Shown piece after piece: positions 11,000-63,451 of a stretch of 64,000 nt of DNA (position 1 is its first letter; every line of letters begins with the position of its first letter). The stretch lies in IMG/VR virus record IMGVR_UViG_3300045988_110853, positions 68,077 to 132,076 of that record; one strand, written 5' to 3'. The position numbers were made by a program, and so were the translations under genes. Below the pieces are notes generated by a model. The model saw only the letters and a program-made list of their open reading frames with translations. It made no database searches and was not told where the DNA came from. This DNA comes from a virus.

Positions 11000-11395
11000 T
11001 TAGCAACTGCCTTCAATGGACTGAGTGGTTTCCGCATTTAATTTTTCCTCCATATATTCGATTAATTTATCTTTATATTTACAACTATCAATATATTTAT
11101 TAATAGTATCTATATCATATTTTTCCATTAAATGCTCTAATACATATTTGTATTTGTTTAACTGATATTCTTCCTGTTCTTTTTTAGTGCTTAATTGAGC
11201 CTTTTCCGCGTCTGATAAAGGTCTGTAAGTAATTGTTCTTGATCCATTATCCTTTTTCTCAATACGTATTGTTTTAAACAATTTCCAATCTCTTACAAAA
11301 GGATCTTTATCTCTTGTTGCATTAAAATATTCTTGTTCTAATCTAAATATTACCGCATCTATCCCTCTTACTTCAAAAGGCTGGTTCCGCTCCAT
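11000..11395 (-). CDS. hypothetical protein (131 aa), in the AT-rich region
   Basis: Start at MERNQPF with a GGGAGGA ribosome-binding site. The stop is TAA. Confidence 0.5.
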   Translation of the reverse strand: MERNQPFEVRGIDAVIFRLEQEYFNATRDKDPFVRDWKLFKTIRIEKKDNGSRTITYRPLSDAEKAQLSTKKEQEEYQLNKYKYVLEHLMEKYDIDTINKYIDSCKYKDKLIEYMEEKLNAETTQSIEGSC

Positions 11396-11765
11396 CTTCA
11401 ATATCCTCCCATTCAAATGTTCCATCATCTAATTCATATACAAACGCTTGCTTATAAAATGATGAAACAATTCCATCATTTGTAATTCCTTTTGGGCTAT
11501 TTTTCGCATCATGGAAACAATTATAAACAATTAATCCTTGCGTTTCATATCGCGAAAAATCTACTGCTCTTCCCTCAAAATCATAATTATAAAATATATT
11601 TAACAATAGCATACATTCATATTGCGCGATCGGCCATTTATTTAATTCTTTCTATTGATTTTCCATTTTCTAATATAGCACCCAGAAAGCTTTTCTATAT
11701 AACCATAAAAAAAGGAGCGATGCTACTAACGCACAACTCAATATTACAATAAAAACAATTTTCAT
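11373..11765 (-). CDS. hypothetical secreted/membrane protein (130 aa) containing 2 in-frame TAG sense codons
   Basis: The track ORF 11373..11612 extends in frame through two TAG codons to an ATG at 11765. That ATG is preceded by AAAAGGAG. The sequence starts MKIVFIVILSCALVASLLF.... The stop is TGA. Confidence 0.5.
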
Positions 11766-11907
11766 AAATACTCCTTTTCTTTTTTTTCTTATAATAATGA
11801 TAAAATAAAAAAAATAAAATGTCAAGTTGTGGCGCGTGCTTGGGCGAAAGTTATTTGTTTTATTAAAAAAATTTTTAAATATAAAAAGAAAAATTTTTAA
11901 ATGAAAC

Positions 11908-11936
11908 TTGACAGAAAAAATTTTTTCAAGTATAAT
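11908..11936 (+). promoter_or_regulatory. consensus promoter TTGACA-N17-TATAAT at the head of the plus-strand late/structural operon
   Basis: Read directly. A GGAGGT ribosome-binding site and ATG 11961 follow. Confidence 0.6.
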
Positions 11937-11960
11937 ATAAATATAGACTGGAGGTAAAAA

Positions 11961-13016
11961 ATGATAAAACTTGATTATTCTTTACAAACTCCAGAAGAAA
12001 GAAATCAATTAGTCGAACAAATTTTGGCTGATAATCCAGATCCGCCTGAGAAATATTTAGAAATTTTAGCAGACTATTTGGTTCTTTGTATGGAGAAACA
12101 AGAAAAAAAGGAGAAAAAATTATTAACTGATAACCGTATGGCAACAGTTAATAAACGTGAAACTTCTTTTGAAGGTCTTGTTTCCCAACTTGAAAATGGC
12201 GAAGATGGAATTTATAATTTAATTACAGATAATAGAAATACAATATTTCAACCACATATTACAATTACAAAAAAAGATTTAGAAGAAATACCAAGTTTAA
12301 ATTAGTTAAGAGAAGCCATTAATGTTTGGGAGGCTAAATTAAAAGTAACAGAAGGCAAGGATGCTTTTGTTATTAAAAAGGCTCTTATTGAAATGCGTAA
12401 AGATTAGTATGTTATGAAAAATGCTTATCGTCGTCCAATAGTGCCTACAAAATTAACCAGATCAAAGTCTTATATTCCATTAGATGATAAAACATTTATT
12501 TTTGATGATGATGGTTTTCCCATTCCCGATGGAATTAGTTTATTAAGACCTGAAATATGTTCTGCGGTTTTATGTAATTATTCCCGATTAAAGCAAGATA
12601 GTTGGGGCGAATATGATAAAGATTTATGGTATTTAATGGAGGATTTTGATAAGCTTTGTGATAAAGCCTTAGCTAATTATCCTCTTTATGATAGAATCGT
12701 TGAATATAAAATTGATGGTTTACAAAATATTGACATTCAAGAGAAAATACAAATGGAATTTGGTATTAAACATAGTCTTGAATATATTTCAAGTTTATGG
12801 CGTAATAAAATTCCAAAATTAATTGCTTCGACTGCGGAAGATGAATATTTAGATAATTATTATTTAAATGTTGAAAAAGGTAAATATAAAAAATGTAGTC
12901 GTTGTGGTAAAATAAAATTAGCTCATAATAAATATTTTAGTAAAAATAAAACAAGTAAAGATGGCTTTTATAGTATTTGTAAAAGTTGTCGAAATTCTAA
13001 GGCCAAAAAATCTTAA
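11961..13016 (+). CDS. hypothetical protein with a C-terminal CxxC...CxxC zinc ribbon (351 aa; 2 in-frame TAG)
   Basis: It follows a consensus promoter at 11908-11936 and a GGAGGT ribosome-binding site. Track ORFs 11961..12305 and 12414..13016 lie in the same frame and are joined by TAG codons. The real stop is TAA. Confidence 0.6.
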
Positions 13017-13065
13017 TATTGTCCTTTTGTTTATAATAAATAGTTGAAAGGAGAATATTTTATTT

Positions 13066-14253
13066 ATGGCTGAAACATATTATTGCGAAAAATGTAATCG
13101 TACAATGAATGGCACGGAATTCTATTCATCTAATAATTTAGAAAAATATCCTAATGATGGTAAATTTCCTGTGTGCAAAAAATGTATGACAATGCACGTC
13201 GATAATTGGAATCCAGATACTTATTTATGGATTTTACAAGAAGCGGATGTTCCTTATGTTCCAGATGAATGGAATAAATTAATGGAAAAATATGGGCGCG
13301 ATCCGCAGTCTATGACCGGTATGACGATTCTTGGACGTTATTTGTCAAAAATGAAACTCAAATAGTTTAAAGATTATCGCTGGAAAGATACAGAATTTTT
13401 ATAGTAGATGGCAAATAATAAATTAGAGCAAACTATGAAACGTCAAGGATACGATGCTCAATAGATTGCAACTGCTATTGAAAAAAGTTCTATTACTATT
13501 CCAGAAGGGGAACTAAAAGAGCCGGTTTATGCTCCACCGCCTAATGCCCCTACGGAAGATTATTTCGCACAATAGAGTGGTGAAGTGGAACAAGAGTTAG
13601 ACTTAACTGATGAAGACCGCACTTATTTAAGGCTTAAATGGGGTAAAACTTATAAACCTGAAGAATGGGTTAAGCTTGAACAATTGTATGAAGAAATGAT
13701 GGCTTCTTATGATATTCAAGGTGCCGGACATAAAGATACGCTAAAACTAATATGTAAGACATCTTTAAAGGCAAATCAATTGATCGATATTGGTGATATT
13801 GAAGGTTTCCAAAAGATGAGCAAAGTATACGATAGCTTGATGAAGTCTGGTAAATTTACCGCTGCTCAAAACAAAGCAGAATCAGGTGAATTTGTTGATT
13901 CAATTGGCGAATTAATTGAATTATGTGAAAAAGAAGGATATATTGAAAGATATTATGTTGAATAGCCACATGATAAAGTGGATTTAACTATTCAAGATAT
14001 GCAACGTTATACTCGCACTCTTATTGAAGATGAAACTAATATTAGCACAATGGTAGAAAAGGCTTTACGCGAAAATGCTAAAGAAGATGAAGAGAAAGCA
14101 AAGAACGCGGAAAGTGATATCGTTGATGATGCTGATTTAAGTATTGAAGAACTTGAAAAAACTATTAAAGATAGTGATTACGCGGATTTTGAGGATTTTA
14201 AAGAATAGGAATCCGCGCAAGATAATGAGTTCTTATAGAGTTTGGATAAGTAA
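13066..14253 (+). CDS. hypothetical protein with an N-terminal zinc ribbon (395 aa; 7 in-frame TAG, two adjacent). It may be the terminase small subunit, judged only by its position upstream of the large terminase.
   Basis: A GAAAGGAGA ribosome-binding site precedes it. Track ORFs 13066, 13585 and 13978 share one frame and are joined by TAG. It ends in a TAA that overlaps the ATG of the large terminase (TAATG). Confidence 0.55.
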
Positions 14254-15992
14254 TGGCATTACAAGATTTATTATAGTTAAGTGATAGTCGCAGAAAAATA
14301 GGTCTATCACCTGAACGAGTAGAAGCGGTGATGCCTACTATCCGCAAATACGTTGCCTTTTGGAGAGAATATCCTGATTTATTTGTAGATTTTATGGTGC
14401 GAGGAAGACGCACTGAAATAAAAGATGGAGAATTTAATTTTTATTTTTATTAGAGAGTATTTCTCCGTTCTGTTATGCGTTATTAGTATGTTTACGCGGT
14501 TTTCCCTCGTGCTTATTCTAAATCATTTTTGTCTGTTATGGCATTAATGATTAGATGTATTTTATATCCTGGTGCGCATTTGTTCGTTACTTCTGGAGGT
14601 AAAGAGCAAGGTGCTAGTATTCTTCATGATAAAGTTCAAGAAATATGTGAACTTATTCCAAGCTTTAATCGAGAAATTGATTGGAGCCGAGGAAAAACTC
14701 TTGAAGGAAAAGATAAAGTTAGATATGTATTTAAAAATGGTTCAGTTTTGGATAACCTCGCAGCTCGTGAAAGCACTCGTGGTCAGCGTCGTCATGGTGG
14801 ATTAATGGAAGAGTGTGTTGGTATTGATGATGCCATTCTTCGTGAAGTTATTATTCCTGTTATGGCAATTTCTCGTAGAGCTAAAGATGGCACTACCAAT
14901 GAACAAGAGCCATTAAATAAATCACAAATCTATATTACTACTGCTGGTTATAAGGGTACGTTCCCTTATGATAGACTTATTGGTTTCTTAGTTCGTATGG
15001 TGACTTAGCCCGATCGTTGTATGGTATTAGGCGGAACATGGCGAACTCCTGTTGCGGTAGGATTACAAAGTAAAACATTTATTACTGACCAAAAGAATGA
15101 AGGAACTTATAATGAAGCTTCATTCGAACGTGAATATGAATCTAAATGGTCAGGAACTGTTGAAGATGCTTTCTTTAATGGAGAGCATTTTGATAGAAAT
15201 AGAAAATTATTATAGCCTGAGTATGAAGCTTCTGGACGTGCAGGCGCGCAAGCTTATTATGTACTTTCTGTAGATGTAGGTCGTAAAGGATGCGATTCAG
15301 TAGTTTGTGTATTTAAAGTAACACCACAAGCACAAGGCCCAGCTATTAAATCATTAGTAAATATGTATACTATGTCAGATGATCATTTTGAAGATTAGGC
15401 TATTAAATTAAAGAAATTATTTTATAAATATAAAGCTAAAACTTTGGTTATAGATGGTAATGGTTTAGGTATTGGACTTTTAGATTATATGGTAAAATCT
15501 CAAAATGATGAAGATGGTGAATTTTTACCTGATTTTGGTGTTGAGAATGATGATGATGGATACTATAAAAAATATCGCACACCAAATACTCAATTTGATG
15601 CTATGTATGTTATTAAAGCAAATGCTCCAATAAATACTGAATGTCATGCTAATGCTCAGACTCAATTACAAGCGGGTAAGGTAAAATTCTTAATAGATGA
15701 GAGAACGGCTAAAGAAAAATTATTAGCTACTCAAAAAGGTTCAAAAATGACTCCTGAACAAAGGGCAGATTATTTAAAACCATTTACTTTAACCTCCATA
15801 TTAAAAGAAGAAATGATGAATTTACGCGAAGAAAATGAAGGTATTAATATTATCTTAAAATAGGCAAATCGCGGAATTCGTAAAGATAAATTTTCGGCTT
15901 TTGAATATGGATTATATTATTTAAAACTTGAAGAAGATAAAAAGAAAAAACGTAAAAAGTTTAATGCGGCTGATTGGTGCTTTTTAAATTAA
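14253..15992 (+). CDS. terL: terminase large subunit (579 aa; 7 in-frame TAG)
   Basis: Track ORFs 14529, 15021 and 15444 share one frame. A P-loop-like motif VFPRAYSKS is present. An ATPase segment reads IYITTAGYKG...VLGGTWRTP. A nuclease segment reads LSVDVGRKGCDSVVCV...LVIDGNGLGIGLLDYM. The gene ends in TAA at 15990-15992. Confidence 0.85.
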
Positions 15993-16004: not shown

Positions 16005-16361
16005 ATGCGTGCTTCAAGAGGAGAAATTAAAATTGAAGAAATCTTAGAAGAAGCAGGACTACCTTTTAAAATGGAATATATTTTTCCAGATTTAAAAAGC
16101 CCAAGCGGGCGTCCACTTCGTTTTGATTTTGTTATATTTGATGATGATGGAAAAATTGATTTCATTATTGAGTATTAGGGAAAATAGCATTATGAAGCCA
16201 GTTCTAAATTTGGCGGAAAACGCGGTTTATACCAGTAGCAATATAATGATAATCAAAAAAGACGTTTTTGCGCTTTACATGATTTTAGATTAATAGAGAT
16301 TCCATATACCGACGAAAACCTTATTTCTTATGATTATATAATGAAATTAGCAGGTTATTAA
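16005..16361 (+). CDS. DUF559/Vsr-like (restriction-endonuclease-fold) nuclease, 118 aa, 4 in-frame TAG. A homing-endonuclease-like insert between the terminase and portal genes.
   Basis: A GGAGGGTGG ribosome-binding site precedes it. The motif LRFDFVIFDDDGKIDFIIEYQGKQHY resembles the DUF559 pattern ...DF.....VE.DG..H. It ends in TAA. Confidence 0.5.
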
Positions 16362-16374: not shown

Positions 16375-18024
16375 TTGGATACGCAAGATCGTAATGATTA
16401 GATTCATGCTAAAGGTTTTGATATTTATAATAGTCGTTATGAATATAATTATAATGACACTATGGATTATGCCAATAGAAAAATAAAAGTTGGCACAAAA
16501 ACTTTAGATGATGCTATTTTAAAACTTGGTGATTATAGTAAGATTAGATACCCAGGTCAAACTCGTATTATCACGAAACCTGATGTGCTTCGCGCACTCG
16601 CGGAAAGAGATTTAAATGCTTTGCGATACATTTCTAATTTTTATTATGATATAAGTGGTGTATATCAACGAGTTTGTAATTATGTTGCTTTTTTATACCG
16701 CTATGATTGGTATATTGCAGCCGAAACTTATGATGATAATGTAAAAGAAGAAAAAGTTTTAAAAGATTTTTATAGAATGTTGAATTATTTTGATAATAGT
16801 TATATTAAAAAGATTTGCGGAGATATTGCTTTACAAGTCGTTAAAAATGGATGCTATTATGGATATATAGTTCCTTCAGAGAAAAATCTAATTTTACAAG
16901 AATTGCCAGTTAGATATTGTAGAACACGTTATAGTGTAAATAATACCCCAGTTGTCGAATTTGATATGCGATTTTTTGATACTTTTAGAGATATGAATTA
17001 CCGCTTAAAGGTATTAAAATTATTCCCAGAAGAATTTGCTAAAGGTTATGTTTTATATAAGCAAGGAAAACTTGCTTTAGAAGAAGCGGTTGGATGCTAG
17101 CATACTGGTAGTTGGTATGTTCTTGAGCCAGAAAATTGTATTAAATTTAATATTAATAATAGTGATGTTCCTATTTTTGTAAATTCTATTCCTACTATTA
17201 TGGATTTAGATGCAGCGCAAGATCTTGACCGCAAGAAACAAATGTAGAAGTTGCTTAAAATTTTAGTCCAAAAGCTCCCAATGGATAAAAATGGCGATTT
17301 GATATTTGATGTTGATGAAGCCAGAGATATCCATAATAATGCCGTTTAGATGTTATAGAGGGCTATTGGAGTAGATGTTTTAACTACATTTACTGATGTA
17401 GATTCTATTGATATGTCTGATAAGAATACTACTACAACGACAGATGATTTAGCTAAAGTTGAACGTAGTGTTTATAATTCATTAGGTATTTCATAGAATT
17501 TATTTAATACTGATGGTAATATGGCTTTAGAAAAATCAGTATTAAATGATGAATCTACAATAAGAAGTTTAATTTTATAGTTTAATATATTCTTTAATAG
17601 AATTATTGAAAAAAAGAGTAGTAATAAGAAATATAATTTTAGATTTTATTTATTAGAAACTACTCAAAATAATTATCAAACACTTTCTAAAATGTATAAA
17701 GAACAAGCGCAAATGGGACAATCAAAACTATTGTCTTAGATTGCTCTTGGACATTCATAGAGTTTTATTCTTAATGCAGCTCATTTTGAAAATGAGATTT
17801 TACATTTAAGTGAAATTATGATTCCTCCTCTTATGAGTTCTACTATGGGTAGTGAAGATATTTTGGGTTTAAAAGGTTCATCATCTAATAATAAAACTCA
17901 AAATAATTCAGGAAGTTCAGGTTCTGGAACTGCTAAAGCTTCTAATGGCGAGGCAGGACGTCCGGAGAAACCTGATGATTAGAAAAGTGAAAAAACTATT
18001 CAAAATAAAGAAGCAATGAAATAA
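16375..18024 (+). CDS. portal protein (549 aa; about 15 in-frame TAG)
   Basis: A TTG start lies 7 nt after AGGAGGTGG. The track ORF 16462..17100 and downstream fragments share one frame. The call rests on position after terL and on size. It ends in TAA. Confidence 0.6.
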
Positions 18025-18033: not shown

Positions 18034-19620
18034 ATGAAACATACAAGTATTAAATTAAATACACCTTGTGAGTTTATAAATATAACTCCTGTAAATCCTT
18101 TAATTTCTAAATGCCAAATTAAGGTTTGTTATGTAGATGATAAACCTAATCGTAACAAAAGCGTAATTACTAAAGATGTAGCGACTGAGATGGCTAATAG
18201 CCTTCCTGGCAGTCCTATTGTTGGCTTTTTTAATGAGAATGCTGAAGATTTTGAAGAACATAATAGGATAATTGAATTATCTAATGGCGAATTTAGAATG
18301 AGAGATAATACTCGCCCTTATGGTTTTGTTGATCTTGGAGCTAAAGTTTGGTTTTAGAAATTTTTGGATGATGGTGTTGCCGAACGTGAGTATTTAATGA
18401 CTGAAGGTTATTTGTGGACTGGTTAGTATCCTGAATGTAAACGTGTAGTTGATAAAGGGAATAATCATTCTATGGAGCTTGATGAAAAAACATTAAATGC
18501 TACGTGGGCAAAAGATAGTAATGGAAAGCCTTAGTTTTTTATTATAAATAAGGCAATTATTTCTAAACTTTGTATTTTGGGAGAAGAAAATGAACCTTGT
18601 TTCGAAGGCTCCCAAATCAATGTGAATTTTTCATTCGATGATGGTTTTAAGAACACTTTGTTCTCCATGATGAATGAACTTAAAGAATTTATGAAAGAAG
18701 GAGGACCCAAAGTGTTTACACAATATGCTGTTGAAATTGGCGATAGTTTGTGGAATTCTCTCTGGTCTTATGTTGAGACTAAATATCCTGGCGAGCCTAG
18801 TAGTTATTGTTCTATTTATCGCATTGAAGGCGTTTATGAAGATGCTGGACAAAAGTTTGCTATTCTTCAAAATAGACAAGACCAAAAATATTATCGCATG
18901 GACTTTTCTCTTACCGATGTAGAAGGCTTTGTTCCTTCTGATGCTTTAACTGAAGTAACTAAGTCTTATACTCCGGCAGCAGAGCCTCAGTTTGCTCTTG
19001 TTGATGTTGAAGCTTTTGAGACTGATTATGCTTCAAAGAAAAAGGCTGAGGAAGAGGACAAAAATAATAAATCTAATGGCCAAAACCCTGATAATAAATC
19101 AGAGGGCAATGATAATAAAAAGAACCCTGATAATGGGGAACCCTCTAATAAGTCTGATAAAGGCGACAATGGCGAGAATGATGATGATAAAAAGAAAAAG
19201 AAAAATTATTCTCTTGAGGACGTTGTTGAATATACTGAACTTAAAGCTCAGTATGATGAATTACAGACTAAATTCGCGGCTCTTGAAACTGAAAATAATA
19301 GCTTGAAAGAGCAAATTGCTCCACTTGCTGAATTTAAAAATGCCGCTGAGAAGAAAGATAAAGAAGATATGATTGCTAAATTCTATATGCTTTCTGATGA
19401 AGATAAGGCTGATGTTGTTGAAAATATTGATAAATATTCTCTTGATGATATTGAAGCTAAATTATCTGTTATTTGTGTTCGCAACAAGGTGAGTTTCGAC
19501 CTTGACGAAAATAATAAGCCCAATGGTGCTACTACTTTTAATTTGAACGATAATGGTTCAGAAGATGATGATATGCCCGCTTGGGTGAAGGCGGCTTTTG
19601 CTACCGCCAACAAAAATTAA
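18034..19620 (+). CDS. putative scaffolding protein with an N-terminal domain, a low-complexity K/D/N-rich linker and a C-terminal coiled coil (528 aa; 3 TAG)
   Basis: A TAAGGAGG ribosome-binding site precedes it. Track ORFs 18034 and 18577 share one frame. The coiled coil reads LEDVVEYTELKAQYDELQTKFAALETENNSLKEQI.... It sits between the portal and capsid genes. Confidence 0.5.
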
Positions 19621-20572: not shown

Positions 20573-21679
20573 ATGTTAGATAAAAATAATTTAATTGCTC
20601 TTATGAAGCAAGTTGCTAAGGCTGATCCTTCTGCTCCTGTTGCTTATAGTTATGAGGGAAAAAATCTTAGTTATGAAGCCTTAAATGAAACTCTTCGTAA
20701 TGAAATGAATGAGTTAGCTGGTACTTATGCTCTTTATCGTGAAAATAAGAATCTTATTTTCTCTATGATTGAGCAGACTCTTGATGAGGTTCTTCCTAAG
20801 AAAGTTATTCAGCAATATGATCAGTTTGCTGAGGTTAAGACTTTCGCTCAGGGTGATAAGCCTATTTTCCGTCGTCCTCTTAATAATCGTGCTCGTGCTA
20901 AGTAGTTTGTAACTCGCGTTGGTCTTGCTGGTATTTATGAAGTCTTCAAGCTCGGACCTAAAGAGAATGAAGCCTTCGAGGTACGTACTAGCGCTATCGG
21001 CGGAGCTGCTCAGATTGGCTTCGAAGAGTTCCTTGATGGTCGTGTTGATTTCGGTGAAGTAACCAAGATCATCATGGATGGTATGGATGAACTTATTTAT
21101 AAAGAAGTCGCTGCTGCTCTTAGATCTTCTATCAATCAGCTTCCTCCTGCTAACCGCGTTGCGGCTGCCGGATTTGATGAAGCTGCTATGGATCGTTTGA
21201 TTACCATTGCTTCTGCTTATGGTACTCCTACTATTTATTGTACTTATGAGTTCGCTGTTAAGATGATTCCTCATGAGGCTTGGAGATATACTGAAGCTAT
21301 GAAGAATGAGCTTTGGAATAATGGTCGTCTTGCTACCTATAAGGGCACTAAGGTTATTATTCTTGAGCAGGGCTTTGAAGATGAAACCAATACTCGTAAG
21401 GTTATTGATCCTGGTTATGCTTGGGTTATTCCTACGGGCGCTGATGGTAAGCCTGTAAAGATTGCTTTCGAAGGTGGCACTATTGTTGACGAGTTCAATA
21501 ATTATGATCGTTCTCGTGAGATTCAGGTTTACAAGAAGGTTGGCGTAGTTTGTATGCTTGCTAACAACATCTGTGCTTATGTTGATACTTCACTTCTTGG
21601 TCAGATGTATACTTGGAATTATGATGGAGTCACTGGTAAGGTTATCACTTATGATGGCCGTCTTGATGGCACTGTTTAA
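20573..21679 (+). CDS. major capsid protein, presumed HK97 fold (368 aa; only 1 TAG)
   Basis: An AAAGGAGAAAAGG ribosome-binding site precedes it. Track ORFs 20573 and 21074 share one frame. The call rests on size and position. A strong terminator hairpin follows at 21695-21745. Confidence 0.6.
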
Positions 21680-49236: not shown

Positions 49237-49277
49237 ATTAAAAAGATTTTATAAATAATAGAAAGGAGTCGATTATC

Positions 49278-49859
49278 TTGCCTAATACATTAAATAAATA
49301 TGTAAAATTTGTCAGAGGTTCTAAAACTGCTTTTGAAAGTTTAGGAACAAAAAGAGACAATGATACTTTATATTTTATTTATGAGGAAAATGATTCTTCT
49401 GGAGAACTTTATTTAGGTAGTCGTCTAATTTGCGGTGGAATTAGTTCCGCGGGTAAGTTAAGCGATTTGAGTGATATTGTTCTCAATGAAGTTAAAACAA
49501 ATCAAGTTTTAATTTATGATGAAGAACAGAAAAAATGGGTTAATTAGGGTTTAGAAAATAATGAAACTTTAATTAATTCTATTGTTGAAAAATTATCTAC
49601 GGAAGAAAATTTAGCTAAGTTAGCTCCTGTTTTTAAGGGTATAGTTCCAGGCTTAGTCCCAGTTTCTTTACACGAAACTAAAGGGAAACATATTCTTACT
49701 GATGCTGGTACATGGATCGATATGCCAGTAGGAACATTAACTTAGGGAGATATGGAAACAATCAATATAGCTAATAAATATTTAGTAGATAAAGGTCCTG
49801 ATAATTTGGTAACTCGTGTTGAAGCAGTCGAACAAACTGTTTCTTGGGCTGATATTTAA
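49278..49859 (+). CDS. fibre-associated protein (193 aa; 2 TAG)
   Basis: A TTG start lies 9 nt after AAAGGAG. It ends in TAA. Confidence 0.45.
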
Positions 49860-49873
49860 AGGAGTGAAAAAGA

Positions 49874-51520: not shown

Positions 51521-51565
51521 GGGCAATACTATTTAATAATAAATATAATTTTTTCTATTTTATAT

Positions 51566-51615
51566 AGAAGAATGTTTTTTATGGGGAAAGATGAAATATT
51601 CTTTCCCCATATTTT
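51566..51615 (+). terminator. hairpin ATGGGGAAAGA..TCTTTCCCCAT plus a T-run
   Basis: Read directly. Confidence 0.65.
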
Positions 51616-51639
51616 TTTTAGGATAGAAAGGAGTAAATT

Positions 51640-54600: not shown

Positions 54601-57600
54601 AATGAAACTTATTCTAAGCATCCGATAGAAGATTATCAAGATTCTTTTGATAAATATAACTTATATGGAGATGTTAATGATTATAGGACTTCTGTAAAAG
54701 GATATCCTGTTTTAGCATTCCATTGGCCCTCTACTAATGATAATGAATATAGTGAAAAAGATATTATTTATATCGGAAAATATAATATGTTGTTAGATAA
54801 AGGCTCTGATGAGTGTTATGGATTTAAGCCTAATAAAAAAATATTATAGAATTAGATTGAAGGGACTCCAAAAGTAAGAGATATTGTTGAGTGCTGGGAA
54901 TTTTAGAATAACTCAAGAACATACTGCTCTTTCCGTGATCCTTGGAATAGATATAAATTATCTTTTAGACCTCCATTAATGGATGATATTAATTCAGCAG
55001 GTTATTTGACTTCTGGTGGGGCTCCAATGGTTGCTGATTCTTTTGAAGTTAGATATAATTCTAATGATGATTTAATCGGTGATGTATTATTTAAATGTAC
55101 TTCTGCTGAAGCTACTGATGCTGATAAAATAATTAAATATACTGATGGTATAAATAATACTGTTCCTAGTAGATTAAAATCAGAAATAATTGTTGATGAA
55201 ACTACGGGAACTAAACATAAATAGTGGACTATTACAAATCCAGGCCAAGAACCTGTTATATTTGATATAAAGAAAAGAAAGACTTCTCGTGAGTTATTGT
55301 TAGCTTTAATGTCAAATTGGGAAGATGCTGTTAGTTGGGTTTGGAGTACTTGTTTAGATTGCAGTATCGATTTTGATGGAACTTTATATGAAATTCCATC
55401 AATGGGAAAATATGAAGAAATAGATTTAGCTTAGGCTAAATATGAAGTAAATAAATATTATATATTTGATAAAACTGATGAAAATGGCAATGACACTTAT
55501 AAAATTGCCACTGAAGGATTTAACTCAGAGGAAAAATATTATATTTATAATAATGATAGTAAAGCTTATAGTATAATTAAATTAACTGATGATGATAATA
55601 AGATTTATTAGATTAATAAATATTATATTTTATAGGACACAAATAATAAAATATATGTTTTAGACTCAGAAAAATTTAATCCATATATAACTTATTATTC
55701 TTTTATTGAAGATGAAAATTAGATTGATGATAAATGGTTATTATCTGCCCCAGTAACCTATAATTCAATTACTTATACTAAAGATAGCAAAGAATATCGT
55801 CAAGCAAAGTTTAAAAATGAATTAAGTAATTATTTTAATATTGAATATTTAGCAACTTATTTCTTAATGACTGAAATTTTTGAATGTTATGACTCTCGTG
55901 GTAAGAATGCAATGTTTGCTTCTTGGGGTCCACAGAAAGGAAATATTGAAAAATCTACGGGAATTTAGCATTATATTTGGTATCCTATTTTCTATGATAT
56001 TGACACTCAATTAGGTATTAATAACACTGGTATTCCATCATTTGAATATTACGTTGATGCTACCAAAGAAGGAAGTTATTCTACTAATGATAGTGTATTA
56101 TGGAATAATTTTTATACTTTCTTTGAAAGTAAAATTATTGATAAATATAAATAGTTAATGGGTCAAACAAATGAATCTTATAGTCCAAGTAAAGTTCAAC
56201 AAATTTTCAAAAGAGGAGAAAAAATTACTTCTAAAAAGAATGACATTGTTGATAAATGGTATAAAACTGATCCGAGTTTATTCCCAGGAAGCTATGTTGT
56301 ATAGGGCGAACGTCCTATCATTGCTTTAAATTTGGATGAAGAATACAAATATATTATTCCAACCAATTCAAAAGCTTTAGAAGCTCAAGGCGGAATTTTT
56401 GGCCGAATCAACGAAACAGGTCAATATGTTAGAGAAACTGATTAGTATTTTTACGCTTTATAGGGCGACCGCAATCTTTATCGTTCTCAATTCTTAACTA
56501 ATCGTCTTAATTATATTGACTCTTGGTTAACTCTTGATGAATATTCTGCTGATGGAGGCAGTAATAAAGTTAGAAGCCGTATTTCTGCTAATAATCCAGA
56601 TACTACTTCTGATAAATGGGTTGAAGGAGCTACTGAAGGGTCTGGATTAATCAATTCTCAATATTGGAAAGATAATGTTGAGTTTGGGACTAAAAATCAT
56701 ATGTTTGATGGTGAATATTGGATTAATATAGAACCAGCACGTAGAGCTTATGTTACTGTTGGAACAGATACATCTAATTTCCAATCTTAGAAGTATGATG
56801 GTTTAATTCCTGTTAGATTTGAAGCTCCTGACTTAAAAAGGGGCATTATGTCTAGCCCCAATTATCGTGAATAGTTGTATTATATTTATGGTTTAGAGTA
56901 GATGAAATCTCTTGGAGATTTAAGTAAGTTATATTTTTAGGAATTTTCTTTAAATGGTAAAGCAAGTAAATTAGTTGATTTATTATTAGGATATGATGGA
57001 CTCTCAGAAGAAGGAGAAACATATCATAATAATAAAGTTAATAATTGGAGTTTTCCAAGTGAGGGAATGCCATTATTAAAAGAAATGAATCTCTGTGGAA
57101 TTCAATTTACAAATCCAATGTCTTTAGATTTAAGCAAAAGTGAAAAATTAGAAAACTTTAGAGATACTGATTCAAATATTTCTAAAGTCCAATTTGCTGA
57201 AGGTGTTGCTTTAAATACTTTATATTTAACTGATTATACAAATTATTTAAGTTTAATTGAAGCAAATCTTTTAACTAAATTAATTACTAGTTATGTTCGT
57301 CCAACTCTTAATACCCTTACTAATCGTCTCGAAGTCGCAGAAGAAAATAAAGGATTATACATTAAAGGTTTAACTGATACTAATGATAATTCCATTAAAA
57401 CGAATATAAAAACTTTTGATATTCGTGGGGGTAATTTAGATTATTACTCTTATGAGTTACTAAGACGTTATTACATTGGGTGTGAAAATAGTAAATTAAC
57501 TGGATGTGGAGTTAATTTAACTAATGTTTAGTGGAGTCCTTATAGACTATTAAATGATGATAAAGTTGAATTAGATAGTGTTAATATTGAGTATTATAAA

Positions 57601-59346
57601 GATAACGGGCATTTTCAATTAGAAAAAATTAACCCAGAAGATGTAAGTAAAATTACTCCAAGCGAAATAAAAAATAATTTAATTTATTATTATGATAATA
57701 GTGTAAATGGATATGATAATATTCACAATAAAGTTATTGATTATACTTTATTACGTAGTTTATATGATAAAGCTCCTGTTTGTTTTAAAGGTATTAATTA
57801 GATTTATCCTAATATAACTGGTATTATTTATATTGAAAATACTCAAGAGATAGAAGAACACGTAATTCAAGAAGAACTATAGAGTATTTATCCTAATTTA
57901 ACTATTTTTGTAAAAAATGTTAAGAAAGAGTATTCTGCTAAGTTTGTCCTTGAGCAAGAAGACGCAAATGGAGTATTAACTCAAGAAATTTTAAAAACTT
58001 AGAAATTACCTTTATTAAGCACCAAGTTCTTTGATAATCCTACTGATTCTTCAAGTGAAACTTATATCTCTTTTGGTAGTTTACAAGAAAAAATGCCAAC
58101 CTATAACTTTAAAGGTTGGGAAGACGATACTGGTGAATTAGTAATTACAGTTGGAAAAGATGTAAATGAAAAAGATGCTGTTTTAAAAGACAATTGGGGT
58201 TCTTTATCCTTACAATCTAATAAAATAGATTATATTTTTAAAGCAAGATTTGAGCGTAAGTCTTATACAATTACTTTTGTTAATGGCGACCGCGTTATTA
58301 ATGATTCAACTGTAAAGAAAGTATTTAATTATGGCGAAAGAATTACAGTTCCAGAGGAATTTTATTACTTTAATAATACAGAAGTAACAGATTTACCAAA
58401 CGGAGAGGATTCTTTAGAATGGACTTGGAGATAGACAGGATGGGCTGATAAAGAAGGAGTTAAAATTGATTTAACAAGATAGTTAGCTTATGCTGACCGC
58501 GAATTCTATGCTGTTGGAGAACCAGTTAGTGTTTATGATAATATCTTAGTTAATGATTCCACTCATAAATATTATGATATTATAAATTCTGATGGAGAAT
58601 TATCATTTGTAATGACTGATTTAGCTAAGAATTTAAAGGGTAAAATTACTTTACCTACAACTTATAATGGTTAGCCAATTACAAGAATTAGATATAGTCA
58701 AGTTAATCCATCCGCTTCTGTGGGTATCCAAGTAAATCCTAATATTACAGCAGTATTTTTTGCTCCAAAAGACAGTAATAAAATTTCTGTAATAGATGAT
58801 TATGCTTTTACTTTAGATAGTGGATTGGAATATTTTTAGTTTAGTGACTGTTTAAAGAAAATTGGTATTAAGGCATTTTATCAATGTCCTTTAAGTCGTA
58901 ATAATATAATTCCTTATTCTTCTTCTACGGAAGGTTTAACTTTTGGAGCTCAAGCGTTCTATCAAAGTAAGATGGGCTCTTATTCTCCTTATAATTTAAT
59001 TATAGAGGGATGTAAAGATGGTATTCTTAACTTTGATGTAAATGCATTCTCTGGTTAGACAATTTTAAATATGTCTGGTAATTAGTTTAAGGGCTATACT
59101 GGTGCTATTCAAGTATAGATTGGTACTAATAAACATCCAATTAAATAGATTACAGCAGATAGTTCTGGACATGTTTTCACTCCTCGTTAGACTGGCATGC
59201 CTACTGTCGCTAATGGATATACAGGTCGTTTTAGATATTATTATGTTGCTAGTTATGGTGAAAGTGTTAAGAATACTTTACATAGAATTTATGAAGCAAT
59301 GATATCTAATAGAGCAAACTTTGAAGAAGAACCTATTGTAAAGTGA
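51640..59346 (+). CDS. giant multidomain virion protein of about 2568 aa (about 70 TAG). It contains a BspA-type leucine-rich-repeat region and a segment resembling the CotH-kinase fold.
   Basis: An AAAGGAG ribosome-binding site precedes it. Seven track ORFs (52426 ... 58093) all lie in frame 1. The stretch 55201-57120 was verified codon by codon. BspA-like LRR segments read ...LEYFQFSDCLKKIGIKAFYQCPLS.... LRR segments also lie at about 57.0-57.5 kb. A CotH-like segment reads ...GKNAMFASWGPQKGN...HYIWYPIFYDIDTQLGINNTG. It ends in TGA. Confidence 0.6.
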
Positions 59347-59355
59347 GGATAAAAT

Positions 59356-59556
59356 ATGGAAAAAGAAATTGTTTATAGATATATGGGTTCTAATGGCATT
59401 ATTGAATCTTCTATATAGTTAGCAGGAGTGCCTGCGACTAAATTATATAGATTAATTACGGATTATAATAAAAAATTAACGAGAGATGGAAAAGAATTCT
59501 TTTCCATCTCTCCTTTAGTTCCCGAAGATGAATTAGAAGAATGGCATGAGGTTTAA
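59356..59556 (+). CDS. small protein (66 aa; 1 TAG)
   Basis: A GTGAGGATAAAAT ribosome-binding site precedes it. It ends in TAA. A terminator follows at 59583-59635. Confidence 0.4.
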
Positions 59557-59582
59557 ATAGGCCAGAATACATTGATTTAAAT

Positions 59583-59635
59583 ATAAAAAAAATTAGGTTA
59601 AATAGGAAAAGAAACTATTTAACCTAATTTTTTTA
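59583..59635 (+). terminator. hairpin ATTAGGTTAAATAG..CTATTTAACCTAAT plus a T-run
   Basis: Read directly. Confidence 0.6.
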
Positions 59636-59652
59636 GAAAGGAAGAGATAGAT

Positions 59653-61335
59653 TTGATAGTTAAAAATGATAGTGTTATCGAACAAGCTAAATGGGAAGAG
59701 CTTCAAAAGAAAATCAATACTTTAGCTAAAGATAACTCAATAAAAAACGTTAATGGAAAAATCGTTGAAATAAAATCTATTGAAGACTATTATAGTAATA
59801 TCACTGGTATCGTTCAAATGAAGAAATTAGATCCATCTGTTCTTCGTATACCTTTAGATGAACCTATTATAAATATAAATGCTGATACTCGTCAAATTGA
59901 ATTAACTAAAGAATTTGGAAAAACGCAATTACTTACTGTTGAAAACGATCATTTGGCAGAAACAATTTATTTTCAAATTGATAGATATTTTGATTTACAA
60001 GATTTAGCGGCTGATGATATTAAAATTTATATTCAGTATTATTTAAACGATCAAGTTCAAGGTTATTCTGAAGCTATTTGTCCTGATATTGGAACTGCTG
60101 GAAAATTGATTTTTGGATGGCAAATTAGTGATGAAGTGACTAGTGAATCTGGTACTTTATAGTTTTCTATTATTTTCTTTAAAAAGAATCCAAAAGATAA
60201 TAATAATTTAATGTATGTATTTAATACATTACCAGCGCAAATGGTTATTAATAAAACTTTAGACATTGATGAAGATTTAATCACTGCTTAGCCTGTTGAT
60301 TATTTAACTGGTTATTTAGAAAGCCTAATTGATTCAAAGAAATCTGCTGGTTTTGGTGTCCCTGATAATGTTGCTTTCTTGGCAAGTATTTTAAATGATA
60401 AATCTGTTTATTTGACAGGGGATAAATTATATGCTTTAGCCTATAATGATACTTTAAATAATCCAGATAATACTACTATTGAGTATAAATGGATTTGTAA
60501 TTATAGAGGAACTAATACTGAATTAAAAAGCGGTATTGGCTATGAATATAAGAAAATTATTGAAGATAATAGTATTTTTAGTGGAGATATGGTTTATAAT
60601 GAAAAATTAACTTATTTCACTAAAAATGGAGATTCTTATATTAATAGTAGTAGTGATATTAATCTTGAAAACTACACTGCCAAGAAGAATGATCTCTATC
60701 TAAAAGTTCAGTATTGCGAAGTTGATGGATGTGGAAGCTATAGCGTCACCGCATTCGGCGCAACCGCCAATCAAGTAAGCAAAGAAGTTAAATGGACTGG
60801 ATTGGCTATTTCTGTTGAAGGAATTAGTGAAGATTTTAGAATTGTTCTTGATCCTTCTCCTGATAATGGATGCTATTATGGTTCTTCTAATACTATTACT
60901 GCTGTTGGATAGAATGATAAAGGCGTCCAGTGTACTTATCTTTGGAAAAAGAATGGTTCTGATTTTAGTACTGATAAAACTGTAACTTTAACTGAAGAAG
61001 ATAATTACACTTTATCAGTTCATGGTTATAAAAATAAAGATAGTATCGATTATCCTACAATTAGTTTCACTAATTATTTTGACCCAACTAATTTAGTTCC
61101 TATCATTGATAAAAAAGTTAAAATTGAGAATGGAAAATATATTGTTACAGTTACTAATACTAGTGAATTAGGCAATGGTATTTATGAATATCAATGGAAA
61201 AATGCGTAGGGTGCTACTTTAAAGACAACTTCTGATAATTCAACAGAAGTAGATGAAAATATTACTCAAGGAGCTGTAATTATCCAGAAGGGTGAAAGAA
61301 AATCGCAACCAGGAACCTTTAAGATTGAGGGGTAA
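59653..61335 (+). CDS. structural protein, fibre or baseplate, with Ig-like repeats (560 aa; 4 TAG)
   Basis: A TTG start follows GAAAGGAAG. Track ORFs 59653 and 60379 share one frame. It ends in TAA. Confidence 0.5.
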
Positions 61336-61340
61336 GATAA

Positions 61341-61961
61341 ATGATAACTAATCCAACTGATTATTATAGTGTTTTACATCAAATACAAGATGAAAATTTT
61401 CCAGTTAAATATCCCGCTCTTCCCGCCCCAGAAGATGAGAAGTTGGTTTAGATAGATTTAAATTCAAGAACTATTAGTAATGAAAATAATTATATCACAG
61501 TTGAAGGCGATCACGCTGCTGAAATTATTTATTTTGAAATAGATAGATATTTTGATACTATGGATTTAACTAATATGATGTGTATTATTTAGTATATTAA
61601 TGCTGATAATGAAAAACGCATTTATCCAGTCCCATATTATGATACTTTAACTCATAAAGATAAAATTATTTTTCCTTGGGTTTTAAATTATAGTGCTACT
61701 AAGAAATCTGGCACTTTGAATTATATGATAACTTTTTATAAAATAGAAAAAGATTCTAATAATTTATTATATAATTTAAATACGTTACCAGCAAGCCTTT
61801 AGGTTTATTCTAAACTTAATTTAGATTCTATTGTAAAAGAAGAAGATTATTATGTAATTGATGATAGTCAAGTAGTACAACAAATTTGGGAGCGTTTAGC
61901 GCGTTTAGAAGGATTTGTTGGTGGTAATGGGTTGGATGTTTATTGGATTGTTCTCGAATAA
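61341..61961 (+). CDS. paralogue of the N-terminal domain of the upstream gene (206 aa; 3 TAG)
   Basis: It shares the motif GDHAAEIIYFEIDRYFD with NDHLAETIYFQIDRYFD of the upstream gene. It ends in TAA. A terminator lies at 61975-62005. Confidence 0.45.
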
Positions 61962-61974
61962 ATAAACCAAATGG

Positions 61975-62005
61975 TATAGAATTATTAATTTAATTCTATA
62001 CCATT
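61975..62005 (+). terminator. hairpin GGTATAGAATTA..TAATTCTATACC
   Basis: Read directly. Confidence 0.5.
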
Positions 62006-62034
62006 AATTTATAGAAAGGAGTTATTGAAGATCG

Positions 62035-63006
62035 ATGGCTCTATTTAAAATTTTAAAAGGTGATTCAGATAGATTAGTCACCTATGATGCGAAAGCGGTT
62101 AATGGGAAAATACCTTTTCCATCTTTAGATTCTGGAAAAACTTTATTTACAACAGTAGAAAGCACTCCTATTACAGAGGGTTACGCTTATTTTACAGAAG
62201 ATACTCATAAATTTTATATTGATACTGCGGATAAAAGATTAAATTTATATACCGACCATGCGGATTATGCTACTTATGATGAAAATGGTCGTAATTTAGC
62301 AGAATTGTCAGAAGTATCTTATGAAAATATTGATGATACTGGAGGGCAAATTGGAGTAATAAATATTAATGGTATTGAATATCCTGTTACTTGTCCTGCT
62401 GATATTGCTGGAAAAACTATAAATAAATATACTTTTGATGTTAGCGCAGATTAGACAGTTTTTAATATTCCTTTTAATTTTAGTGATAGTAGTACACTTA
62501 CTCTTTATTATAATGGCATTATGATTTAGGAAACAGAAAATTATACTATAAATGGTAATACTATTACTTTAAATGGTTGGAAAGGTGAGTAGGGAGATTT
62601 TCTAACCGTAATGGGTATTGAAGGAGCAGCGGGAGTTAATGTTGATGAAGATATTGTTCGTATCCAAACTGAATTAAATAAAGCTTTAGAAAAAATTAAT
62701 TCTTCTACCGAAAATTTAATTTACAAAAATAAATCTAATATATTAACTAAAGATGGTAAAATTACTATGGATAGTACTTATATCCCAACGCAGGACATGG
62801 ATTTAGTAACTAAAAAATACGTTGACAATGCCACTCCTCCTACAGTTGGAACTACTACTGATTATTCTATTTATATTGGATCAACACAGCCTGCTTCTGG
62901 CACCGCGCCTTTAATATGGATAGATACAACTGCTAAAACTGGCACTTTTAAATATAGAACTTCTACCACAGGCACTTGGACACCTGTTCCCGTGGCTTGG
63001 ATTTAA
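62035..63006 (+). CDS. tail fibre or structural protein (323 aa; 3 TAG)
   Basis: An AAAGGAG ribosome-binding site precedes it. Track ORFs 62035 and 62611 share one frame. It ends in TAA. Confidence 0.5.
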
Positions 63007-63040
63007 TATAAATTTATTGTAAGAAAAAGGAGATAATATT

Positions 63041-63451
63041 ATGGATCAAAATTTGATTAATCAATTATTTCAAGTATGTTTGATTCCTATGCTTGGCGCT
63101 TTAACTACTTTTATAGTTATTTGGATTAAAGCAAAAAGTGCGGAATTACAAAAGAAAACTGATAATGACATCTTAAATAAATACGTTTAGATGGCTACTG
63201 ATACAATTACCAACTGTGTTATTGCCACTAATCAAACTTATGTAAATTCTCTTAAAGAGCAAGGTAAATTTGATGAAGCCGCACAAAAAGAAGCCTTTTA
63301 GAAAACTTATCAAGCAGTATTACTTATTTTAAGTGATGATGCTAAAGAATATTTAAATAATGCTTTTGGTGATTTGAATAAATATTTACAAGAAAAGATT
63401 GAATCTACAGTAAATAATTATCGTACTCCAAGTGATGATTTAAAACAATAA
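63041..63451 (+). CDS. putative holin (136 aa; one N-terminal TM helix and a charged C-terminus; 2 TAG)
   Basis: An AAAAAGGAGA ribosome-binding site precedes it. The sequence starts MDQNLINQLFQVCLIPMLGALTTFIVIWIKAK.... It is the last gene of the late operon and ends in TAA. Confidence 0.35.

What the first reader, a model, noticed from the sequence alone, without database searches (positions are those of the whole stretch)
11373..63451. TAG stop codon is read as a sense codon throughout the AT-rich late region
Every large late gene is split by in-frame TAG codons in the six-frame track. Consecutive fragments always share a frame (for example 14529/15021/15444 for the terminase, and 15 fragments in frame 2 for the tape measure). 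Reading through TAG restores coherent proteins with recognisable terminase, portal, capsid and tape-measure features. The restored genes terminate with TAA or TGA, and a strong GGAGG ribosome-binding site plus ATG follows immediately. No gene in the 64-kb window uses TAG as its terminator. I counted roughly 350 in-frame TAG codons, including a run of two consecutive TAGs at 13408-13413. A minus-strand gene in the same AT-rich zone (11373-11765) also needs two TAG read-throughs to reach its ribosome-binding site and start. This is the signature of a stop-codon-recoded (code-15-like, TAG to an amino acid, probably Gln) phage. Standard-code gene callers would annotate this region as hundreds of fragments.
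Basis: partly seen in the sequence, partly recalled or inferred. Interest (0 to 1): 0.9.

Follow-up and report, generated by a model that had tools for sequence, protein, structure and literature searches.

The report
Gut phage reading TAG as glutamine
This window is part of a roughly 195-kb human-gut phage whose late genes read the TAG stop codon as glutamine, which is real but belongs to an already described kind of phage.

Summary
Thirty tightly packed + strand genes (11961-63451) and one minus-strand gene (11373-11765) carry in-frame TAG. There are 252 TAGs in 16,633 codons, not about 350. No TAA or TGA is in frame, and no gene ends in TAG.

Reading TAG as sense raises the longest ORF from 396 to 2,973 aa. 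It restores full-length terminase, portal, tape measure and holin.

TAG means glutamine. In close relatives the commonest replacement is CAA/CAG at 68 of 103 variable sites. Against a standard-code Enterococcus phage, Gln aligns at 19 of 75 sites (p = 1.6e-9).

The window has no tRNA. Genomes of close relatives (TerL 98% identical) carry an array of at least 24 tRNAs about 33-45 kb left of the window. It lies on the early-gene strand and includes a tRNA with anticodon CUA. I could not read that region on the window's own contig.

The 46 early genes examined (32 in the window) have no TAG stops, and only one of them, a homing-endonuclease gene outside the window, has in-frame TAG. They can be read under either code.

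The phage is SPbeta-like and distantly related to the published code-15 phage phAss-1. Public gene calls already translate it with TAG = Q. It is a new member of a known kind.

The parts
1..11395 (-). Early block of 32 small minus-strand genes, 40-42% GC. It has no in-frame TAG and no TAG stops, so it reads the same under either code.
   Evidence: The window is 100% identical to ENA contig ERZ918917 k127_108033 over this stretch.
11373..11765 (-). First leftward gene, 130 aa, function unknown, N-terminal hydrophobic segment. It has two in-frame TAGs, at 11672 and 11654.
   Evidence: A public gene call of 130 aa matches. No PHROG match.
11797..11936 (.). Divergent sigma-70-like promoters in the 195-bp gap. 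The minus-strand one is TTGACA-17-TATCAT at 11825-11797. The + strand one is TTGACA-17-TATAAT at 11908-11936.
   Evidence: These are consensus matches only.
11961..13016 (+). Sigma-factor-like protein, 351 aa, with TAG at codons 115 and 149. It is the first gene of the rightward block.
   Evidence: phrog_5767 'sigma factor', E = 3e-54, spanning residues 31-347. No Pfam hit. At least one TAG in all 24 TAG-recoded lineages where an ortholog was found.
13066..14253 (+). YonG-like protein, 395 aa, 8 TAGs including the tandem TAG-TAG at 13402-13407.
   Evidence: phrog_3314, PF27269 YonG_N.
14253..15992 (+). Large terminase subunit, 579 aa, 7 TAGs.
   Evidence: phrog_2 and others. 46-47% identical to the annotated Enterococcus phage H1 terminase. 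Public 579-aa proteins have Q at every TAG position.
16005..16361 (+). HNH/homing-endonuclease-like gene, 118 aa, 3 TAGs, between terminase and portal.
   Evidence: phrog_559 and phrog_9084.
16375..18024 (+). Portal protein, 549 aa, 10 TAGs.
   Evidence: phrog_2739, E = 9e-80, spanning residues 73-546.
18034..19620 (+). YonD-like head protein, 528 aa, 3 TAGs.
   Evidence: phrog_3313, PF27290 YonD_N.
20573..21679 (+). YonB-family protein, probably the major capsid protein, 368 aa, 40% GC. It has 1 TAG here and none in any relative examined.
   Evidence: PF27364 YonB, phrog_4088.
25644..26642 (+). Tail tube protein (YomU_Tube), 332 aa, no TAG here or in any relative examined.
   Evidence: PF27173.
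26881..27987 (+). 368-aa protein of unknown function. It has the highest TAG share: 15 TAGs, 68% of its Gln codons, including the tandem TAG at 27466-27471.
   Evidence: No PHROG match.
28706..37627 (+). Tape measure protein, 2973 aa, 60 TAGs.
   Evidence: PF10145 PhageMin_Tail on the 2974-aa public ortholog..
37741..61961 (+). Nine tail, baseplate and fibre genes. They include proteins of 1149, 962, 768, 758 and 2568 aa. Together they carry 109 TAGs.
   Evidence: phrog_1887 'tail protein' for 44252-46558.
62035..63006 (+). Tail-fibre-like protein, 323 aa, 3 TAGs.
   Evidence: phrog_2710, weak.
63041..63451 (+). Holin, 136 aa, 2 TAGs. It is the last gene of the rightward block.
   Evidence: phrog_13712 'holin', E = 8e-38.

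Best explanation
The window is 64 kb of a roughly 195-kb SPbeta-like tailed phage from the human gut. In this phage UAG is decoded as glutamine. 

Shown:
- The late genes contain 252 in-frame TAGs, about 35% of all Gln codons.
- TAG is never used as a terminator.
- The early leftward genes avoid TAG altogether.
- Genomes of close relatives encode a tRNA with anticodon CUA. It sits in an array of at least 24 tRNAs on the early-gene strand, about 44 kb left of the window.

Inferred:
- Leftward transcription yields the TAG-free early proteins and later the tRNA array.
- Only when the suppressor tRNA has accumulated and been charged by host enzymes can the TAG-containing messages be translated in full. 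These include the sigma-like factor, terminase, portal, tail proteins and holin.
- TAG would therefore act as a translational delay on virion assembly and lysis.
- The most abundant virion proteins (capsid, tube) are kept almost free of TAG, probably because suppression is limiting.
For: Recoding:
- ORF length and coding density rise only when TAG is sense.
- There are 0 in-frame TAA or TGA against 252 TAG in 16,633 codons.
- HMM matches span the TAGs.

Identity of the amino acid:
- Of 111 window TAG sites covered by relatives, 103 vary. The commonest replacement is Gln at 68, then Lys at 11 and Glu at 9.
- In lineage L011, 36 of 62 sites are CAA or CAG.
- Against standard-code Enterococcus phage H1, Gln aligns at 19 of 75 sites against a 4.8% background (p = 1.6e-9). 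Summed BLOSUM62 scores are Q +91, E +54, K +26, Y -108, L -115.

Suppressor tRNA:
- A tRNA(CUA) sits between tRNA-Val and tRNA-Tyr in 12 relatives.
- Rfam's tRNA model confirms it at 50-56 bits.
- The start of the array is on the same IMG/VR contigs that carry a TerL 98% identical to the window's.

Early genes:
- 46 genes have 0 TAG stops, and in-frame TAG occurs only in one homing-endonuclease gene outside the window.

Other support:
- Promoters.
- TAG-free capsid and tube genes in all lineages.
- Published precedents: PMC10607447 and bioRxiv 10.1101/2021.08.26.457843.
Against: - The suppressor tRNA was found in close relatives, not on the window's own contig. I could not read that region of it.
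- Strains carry three unrelated tRNA(CUA) types. One has a long variable arm like tRNA-Tyr, -Leu or -Ser, so its charging identity is not established from sequence.
- The timing model is inference. No expression data exist.
- Some genes that are not late also contain TAG: NrdD, NrdG, RuvC, glycine-rich proteins and homing endonucleases.
- About 40 kb of the relatives' genome was never read. A release factor or an aminoacyl-tRNA synthetase could lie there.
- The host is unknown. MAG bin labels are inconsistent.
Confidence: 0.9

Rival explanations
1. TAG is read as an amino acid other than glutamine. Tyr, Leu or Ser would fit the suppressor type with a long variable arm, and Pyl is the label ARAGORN gives.
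For: The type C tRNA(CUA) is 90 nt with a long variable arm. ARAGORN names all CUA tRNAs 'Pyl'.
Against: TAG exchanges overwhelmingly with CAA and CAG. BLOSUM sums are Q +91 against Y -108, L -115 and S -14. With TAG counted as Gln, Gln content is a normal 4.3%. Authors of the phAss-1 paper report that tRNAscan-SE assigns Gln to that phage's Sup-CTA tRNA (PMC10607447). No Pyl genes were seen, though they were not searched for systematically.
Confidence: 0.04
2. The phage has no switch of its own. The host already reads TAG as sense or supplies the suppressor, so the phage simply matches its host.
For: The host is unidentified. The suppressor tRNA was not seen on the window's own contig.
Against: The 46 early genes avoid TAG as a sense codon. 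That is unexpected if the host decoded it from the start of infection. Close relatives encode their own tRNA(CUA). Relatives at about 70% TerL identity use the standard code, with 0 TAG in about 4,500 codons. No bacterium with TAG = Gln is known to me (own knowledge).
Confidence: 0.04
3. The TAGs are real stops. The region is a decaying prophage, or the stops are assembly or sequencing errors.
For: None beyond the fragmented appearance under table 11.
Against: Only TAG interrupts genes, never TAA or TGA. The same genes recur in hundreds of independent assemblies from human and pig gut, with protein sequence conserved and TAG exchanging with Gln codons. Coding density is 98% with TAG as sense.
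Confidence: 0.01

Closest known systems
phAss-1 / proposed Phassvirus group (OQ749652; Babkin et al. 2023, PMC10607447; NCBI 'Caudoviricetes code 15 clade')
   Same: - Human-gut siphovirus-like genome with TAG read as Gln in terminase, portal, tape measure and tail genes.
- A very long tape measure protein, about 3,000 aa.
- A large tRNA array that includes tRNA(CUA).
- Two of the three suppressor types here are 77% identical to phAss-1 suppressors.
- The module layout is similar: divergent early and late arms, with NrdD/NrdG in the replication arm.
   Different: - TerL is only about 45% identical, and there is no nucleotide-level similarity beyond short patches. This is a different genus or higher taxon.
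- The genome is about 195 kb, against 136 kb.
- One suppressor slot was seen in the array, against three suppressor genes in phAss-1. Two of those sit next to NrdD. Here the NrdD flank has no tRNA.
Alternatively coded gut phage clades of Borges et al. (bioRxiv 10.1101/2021.08.26.457843), especially the large Firmicutes-associated 'Agate' clade
   Same: - Standard-code-compatible early genes, with recoded structural and lysis genes.
- A phage-encoded suppressor tRNA.
- Close relatives differ in code and in recoding density.
- Genome in the 150-200 kb class, found in human and animal guts.
   Different: Clade membership could not be tested, because their sequences are not in the tools. No TGA-recoded relative was seen among 102 loci. 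No release factor was seen, but the genome was not fully read.
crAss-like phages with code 15, validated by metaproteomics (Peters et al. 2022, PMC9523058)
   Same: The same reassignment, TAG to Gln. That paper provides the experimental proof that such phages really translate TAG as Gln.
   Different: They are unrelated Crassvirales podoviruses of Bacteroidota. Here the virion module is SPbeta-like (Yon/Yom Pfam families) and the relatives infect Bacillota.
Bacillus phage SPbeta and Enterococcus phages H1, EF1 and VRE9 (standard code)
   Same: Shared virion-module families: YonG, terminase (YonF-like), YonD, YonB, YomW, YomV and YomU. Gene order is the same, and an upstream block of small leftward genes is present.
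   Different: These phages use the standard code, with 0 in-frame TAG in 3,972 aligned codons of H1.

Membership tests
Code-15 (TAG to Gln) recoded bacteriophage | Essential phage genes are interrupted only by in-frame TAG, and reading through restores full-length homologs. | tested here: met
   252 TAG and 0 TAA or TGA in frame. ORFs reach 2973 aa. HMM matches span the TAGs.
Code-15 (TAG to Gln) recoded bacteriophage | TAG positions correspond to Gln in homologs. | tested here: met
   68 of 103 variable sites have Gln as the commonest alternative. 19 of 75 sites align with Gln in a standard-code phage (p = 1.6e-9), and Q has the best BLOSUM sum.
Code-15 (TAG to Gln) recoded bacteriophage | TAG is not used as a terminator. 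| tested here: met
   No TAG terminator among about 78 genes: the 30 late genes, the minus-strand gene, and 46 early genes. P is about 3e-8 if 20% of stops were TAG.
Code-15 (TAG to Gln) recoded bacteriophage | The phage encodes a suppressor tRNA with anticodon CUA. | tested here: inconclusive
   Absent from the window and from about 130 kb of a relative's genome. Present in the tRNA array of 12 close relatives and confirmed by Rfam. That region of the window's own contig could not be fetched.
Code-15 (TAG to Gln) recoded bacteriophage | Peptides show Gln at TAG positions. | not testable with these tools
   Needs proteomics. It has been done for crAss-like phages (PMC9523058).
Proposed genus Phassvirus (phAss-1 and relatives) | Genus-level nucleotide similarity to phAss-1. 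The three proposed species share 80-86% identity. | tested here: not met
   A distant blastn finds only a 374-bp patch at 67%. TerL is 44-45% identical at the protein level.
Wider monophyletic group around phAss-1, Enterococcus EF1 and Enterocloster PMBT10 (PMC10607447) | Shared terminase and virion-module homology and synteny. | tested here: met
   tblastn matches for about 20 late proteins, in the same order, in phAss-1 and Enterococcus phage H1. No formal phylogeny was made.
SPbeta-like virion module | Yon/Yom protein families in SPbeta order. | tested here: met
   PF27269, PF27290, PF27364, PF27256, PF27211, PF27173 and PF27287 (the last is a weak hit) on the orthologous public proteins.
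'Agate' clade of Borges et al. | Placement in their TerL phylogeny. | not testable with these tools

The most novel reading that the evidence does not exclude
In this phage lineage TAG would be a tuned translational timer, not just an alternative code. Four observations fit that reading.
- The first rightward gene is a sigma-like factor behind a perfect host-type promoter. It carries TAG in every recoded lineage where it was found.
- The suppressor lies far downstream on the opposite, early transcription arm.
- The capsid and tube genes are kept free of TAG across all lineages.
- Strains swap three unrelated tRNA(CUA) genes in and out of one slot of the array, like a cassette.

TAG density ranges from 0 to 17 per 1000 codons among relatives at 70-98% TerL identity. 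This lineage could therefore show code change in progress.
Probability: 0.35. Interest if true: 0.5.

Novelty: new member of a known kind. Interest (0 to 1): 0.3.

Why it matters
For annotation, the region must be called with table 15. IMG's standard-code calls cut these genes into fragments.

The lineage is abundant. It appears in hundreds of human and pig gut assemblies.

It spans standard-code relatives, lightly recoded ones and heavily recoded ones within one terminase family. That makes it a convenient natural series for studying how stop-codon reassignment spreads through a genome, and which genes resist it (capsid and tube).

It adds no new principle beyond Ivanova 2014 (cited from my own knowledge), Borges 2021/2022, Peters 2022 and Babkin 2023.

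Tried and rejected
- ARAGORN and Rfam on the window found nothing. The same was true of the 8.9 kb to its left.
- I walked the genome of a 95%-identical IMG/VR relative in 10-kb steps. Four steps to the right found no tRNA. They passed the lysis genes, NrdD/NrdG, DnaE, RecD, RecJ, ligase, PhoH and endolysin.
- My expectation from phAss-1, that the suppressor would sit next to NrdD, was wrong for this lineage.
- Walking left through the early genes reached the array. The suppressor itself needed an ENA look-up and a metagenome scan.
- Attempts to reach the same region on the window's own contig failed. No returned protein was an exact match on it.
- Pfam found nothing for the sigma-like protein, TerL or portal. 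Only PHROGs and precomputed Pfam hits on orthologs were informative.
- A genome-contig scan for the host gave only inconsistent MAG bin labels: 'Mollicutes', Acutalibacteraceae, Lachnospiraceae, Treponema and Bacteroidales. I rejected it as host evidence.
- The context and position of TAG within genes showed only weak trends, with p about 0.04.
- ARAGORN's 'tRNA-SeC(tca)' calls were not confirmed by Rfam.
Full report
**Source.** The window is 32.5% G+C overall. Its first 11.6 kb is 100% identical to L003, a locus read from a 196,188-bp contig of a human gut metagenome (ENA ERZ918917, run ERR636414).

**Checking the observation.**
- Treating TAG as sense changes the longest ORFs from 396 codons to 2981, 2569, 1155 and so on. 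Treating TGA or TAA as sense gives no comparable gain.
- Under TAG-sense, 30 genes tile the + strand from 11961 to 63451 with almost no gaps. All end in TAA or TGA, and nearly all are preceded by a GGAGG-like ribosome-binding site.
- + strand ORFs of at least 100 codons cover 51% of this region under table 11 and 98% with TAG as sense.
- The genes hold 16,633 codons with 252 in-frame TAG and no in-frame TAA or TGA. The other two frames hold hundreds of each.
The tandem TAG-TAG lies at 13402-13407 rather than 13408-13413, and a second tandem lies at 27466-27471.
- The minus-strand gene 11373-11765 is real as described. It is 130 aa, has two TAGs and an AAGGAG ribosome-binding site, and is called identically in public data.

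**What the genes are.**
- PHROG profiles match across the TAG positions. The matches are:
  - a sigma-factor-like protein (11961-13016, E = 3e-54);
  - the large terminase (14253-15992);
  - an HNH endonuclease (16005-16361);
  - the portal (16375-18024, E = 9e-80);
  - a tail protein;
  - a holin (63041-63451, E = 8e-38).
- Precomputed Pfam hits on the orthologous public proteins are the SPbeta families YonG_N, YonD_N, YonB, YomW, YomV_2nd, YomU_Tube and YomO (weak). The 2973-aa protein's ortholog hits PhageMin_Tail.
- The nearest annotated phages are standard-code Enterococcus phages (H1, VRE9, EF1; TerL about 47%), Geobacillus E3, and phage phAss-1 (TerL about 45%).
- phAss-1 is filed by NCBI under 'Caudoviricetes code 15 clade'. 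It was published as a TAG-to-Gln phage with three suppressor tRNAs (PMC10607447).

**Which amino acid.**
- Public 579-aa terminase proteins 98% identical to the window's show Q at all seven TAG positions. The loci do not translate to them under table 11. Those Qs were therefore assigned by a code-15 gene caller and are not independent evidence.
- Independent evidence comes from codons. In a 97%-identical strain, 60 of 63 window TAGs are kept and the other three are CAA or CAG. In a lineage with 88% TerL identity, 36 of 62 are CAA or CAG and 5 are TAG.
- Across all fetched relatives, 111 window TAG sites are covered and 103 vary. The commonest alternative is Gln at 68 sites, Lys at 11 and Glu at 9. 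Where relatives have TAG and the window does not, the window codon is CAA or CAG at 103 of 248 sites.
- Against standard-code Enterococcus phage H1, Gln aligns at 19 of 75 TAG sites against a 4.8% background (p = 1.6e-9). The summed BLOSUM62 score is highest for Q (+91; E +54, K +26, Y -108, L -115).
- With TAG counted as Gln, Gln makes up 4.3% of residues. TAG is 35% of Gln codons.

**The early region.**
- The public gene calls give 46 genes on the window's minus strand. Thirty-two lie in the window (31-11395) and 14 lie just to its left.
- Thirty of these end in TAA and 16 in TGA. None ends in TAG. In-frame TAG occurs only in one HNH/NUMOD4 homing-endonuclease gene outside the window.
- This block is 40-42% G+C, against 28-34% for the late block.
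- The early genes therefore read the same under both codes. That argues against a host that already decodes TAG.

**The suppressor tRNA.**
- The window has no tRNA and no Rfam match.
- I walked the genome of IMG/VR relatives. Contig 3300045988_118866 (194 kb) is about 95% identical at the window's right end.
- Going right, I passed a LytTR-like regulator, dUTPase, RuvC, NrdG, NrdD, DnaE, RecD-like, RecJ-like, ligase-like and PhoH-like genes and an endolysin. No tRNA appeared.
- Going left, I passed about 30 kb more of small early genes and two glycine-rich PF12810 proteins. A tRNA array then begins about 33 kb left of window position 1, on the same strand as the early genes.
- ENA and metagenome contigs of the same phage show at least 24 tRNAs in conserved order. 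A tRNA with anticodon CUA lies between tRNA-Val(UAC) and tRNA-Tyr(GUA) in 12 relatives. It is about 44 kb left of the window.
- Rfam's tRNA model confirms these suppressors at 50-56 bits.
- The start of the array lies on the same IMG/VR contigs (126669, 118370, 126226) that carry a TerL 98% identical to the window's.
- I could not fetch this region from the window's own contig.

**Suppressor types.** Strains carry one of three unrelated tRNA(CUA) sequences in the same slot.
- Type A is 73 nt and 77% identical to the 75-nt phAss-1 suppressor.
- Type B is 73 nt.
- Type C is 90 nt with a long variable arm, and is 77% identical to the 91-nt phAss-1 suppressor.
- All three have a mismatched 1:72 pair, G73 and the loop CU-CUA-AA.
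- A weak 1:72 pair plus G73 recalls known tRNA-Gln identity elements. That comes from my own knowledge and is not a test.

**Likely mechanism.**
- The 195-bp gap at 11766-11960 holds divergent sigma-70-like promoters. One is 12 of 12 on the + strand before the sigma-like gene. The other is 11 of 12 on the minus strand before the first early gene. These are consensus matches only.
- I infer that host RNA polymerase starts both arms.
- The leftward arm gives TAG-free early proteins and, further along, the tRNA array.
- Full-length sigma-like factor (TAG at codons 115 and 149), packaging, tail and lysis proteins then appear only once the suppressor is present. This is the model of Borges et al. 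(bioRxiv 10.1101/2021.08.26.457843) applied to this phage.
- Supporting detail: the sigma-like gene has 1-7 TAGs in all 24 recoded lineages where an ortholog was found. This is not significant on its own, given the TAG densities.
- The YonB capsid-like gene and the tube gene have no TAG in any relative. The window's YonB gene is the exception, with one TAG. This suggests that suppression is limiting for the most abundant proteins.
- TAG is not confined to late genes. NrdD, NrdG, RuvC, the glycine-rich proteins and homing endonucleases have a few each.

**Distribution among relatives.** In 102 loci of the same terminase family, TAG density in the conserved virion module ranges from 0 to 17 per 1000 codons. 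The zero cases are several lineages at about 70% TerL identity, with about 4,500 codons each. No lineage uses TGA as sense. Recoding is therefore patchy and graded. This matches reports for other clades and for the phAss-1 group.

**Host.** Contigs of this phage are binned into MAGs with inconsistent labels. The SPbeta-like module and the Enterococcus, Geobacillus and Bacillus relatives point to Bacillota. No specific host can be named.

**Verdict.** The observation and the interpretation are both right, with corrected numbers. The phenomenon is well known, a distant relative with the same code is published, and public gene calls already apply TAG = Q to this phage. It is a new member of a known kind. 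Its modest extra interest lies in the exchange of suppressor tRNA types within one slot, the TAG-free capsid and tube genes, and the graded recoding among close relatives.

Noticed in passing
window 1-11400 versus 12000-64000: There is a sharp composition step. The early minus-strand block is 40-42% G+C and the late block 28-34%. Between strains the early block is also much more divergent (86-88% identity) than the late block (96.7%).
   Followed up: partly
window 11797-11825 (-) and 11908-11936 (+): Divergent near-perfect sigma-70 promoter matches (11/12 and 12/12) lie in the 195-bp gap between the first leftward gene and the sigma-like gene.
   Followed up: partly
window 20573-21679 and 25644-26642; orthologs in 30 related loci: The YonB (capsid-like) and YomU (tube) genes have no TAG in any relative. 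Their neighbours have many. Both genes are also more G+C-rich (39-40%) and prefer CAG over CAA.
   Followed up: partly
L246 12652-12724, L244 12491-12563, L247 8776-8865: Three unrelated tRNA(CUA) sequences occupy the same slot of the tRNA array (Val-[Sup]-Tyr) in closely related strains. One has a long variable arm.
   Followed up: partly
L226 17062-17132, L224 17058-17128, L244 1279-1349: The first element of the tRNA array is a low-G+C tRNA-like gene with a 6-nt anticodon loop (AUUUAA or CUUCAA). Rfam's tRNA model scores it at 46 bits. Its function is unknown.
   Followed up: partly
L246 14003-14082, L247 10580-10659: ARAGORN calls an 80-nt 'tRNA-SeC(tca)' after the suppressor. Rfam does not confirm it, so it is probably a false positive.
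   Followed up: partly
L016-L095 and L260-L281 (TerL loci): The same terminase family contains standard-code lineages (0 TAG in about 4,500 codons) and TAG-recoded ones (2-17 per 1000 codons). There is no TGA recoding.
   Followed up: yes
window 16005-16361; L003 18087-18701; L226 from about 20050; L233 11660-12304: Several HNH, NUMOD4 and GIY-YIG homing-endonuclease genes are scattered through the genome: between terminase and portal, in the early block, and inside the tRNA array. They contain TAG codons themselves, even in the otherwise TAG-free early block.
   Followed up: no
L254 23-2466 and 16171-17888: In one relative, a YcaO-domain protein lies before the tRNA array and two Mtd_N-domain proteins lie after it. 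The latter could be targets of a diversity-generating retroelement.
   Followed up: no
P0318, P0319, P0332: JGI/IMG holds 100-aa 'hypothetical protein' fragments of the 285-aa NAGPA/SPOR protein on contigs of about 194 kb. This shows that standard-code calling fragments this phage in IMG.
   Followed up: no
IMGVR_UViG_3300032167_000002 (402 kb; L035, L048); ENA scaffold of 393,622 bp (L007): The 402-kb IMG/VR contig carries two different TerL copies (87% and 76% identity). It is probably an assembly join of two related phage genomes rather than a 400-kb phage. The 393-kb ENA scaffold is similarly about twice the genome size and may be another such join, but only one TerL locus was read on it.
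   Followed up: no
window 1143-1595 (-); relatives L006-L015: The early block encodes an AbrB/MazE-fold protein. Relatives carry a FolD-like (THF_DHG_CYH) gene next to the late block that the window lineage lacks.
   Followed up: no
L226 13701-16982; L232 8604-11302: Two paralogous glycine-rich PF12810 proteins (about 435-470 aa, 4-5 TAGs each) sit just upstream of the tRNA array. They are highly variable between strains.
   Followed up: no
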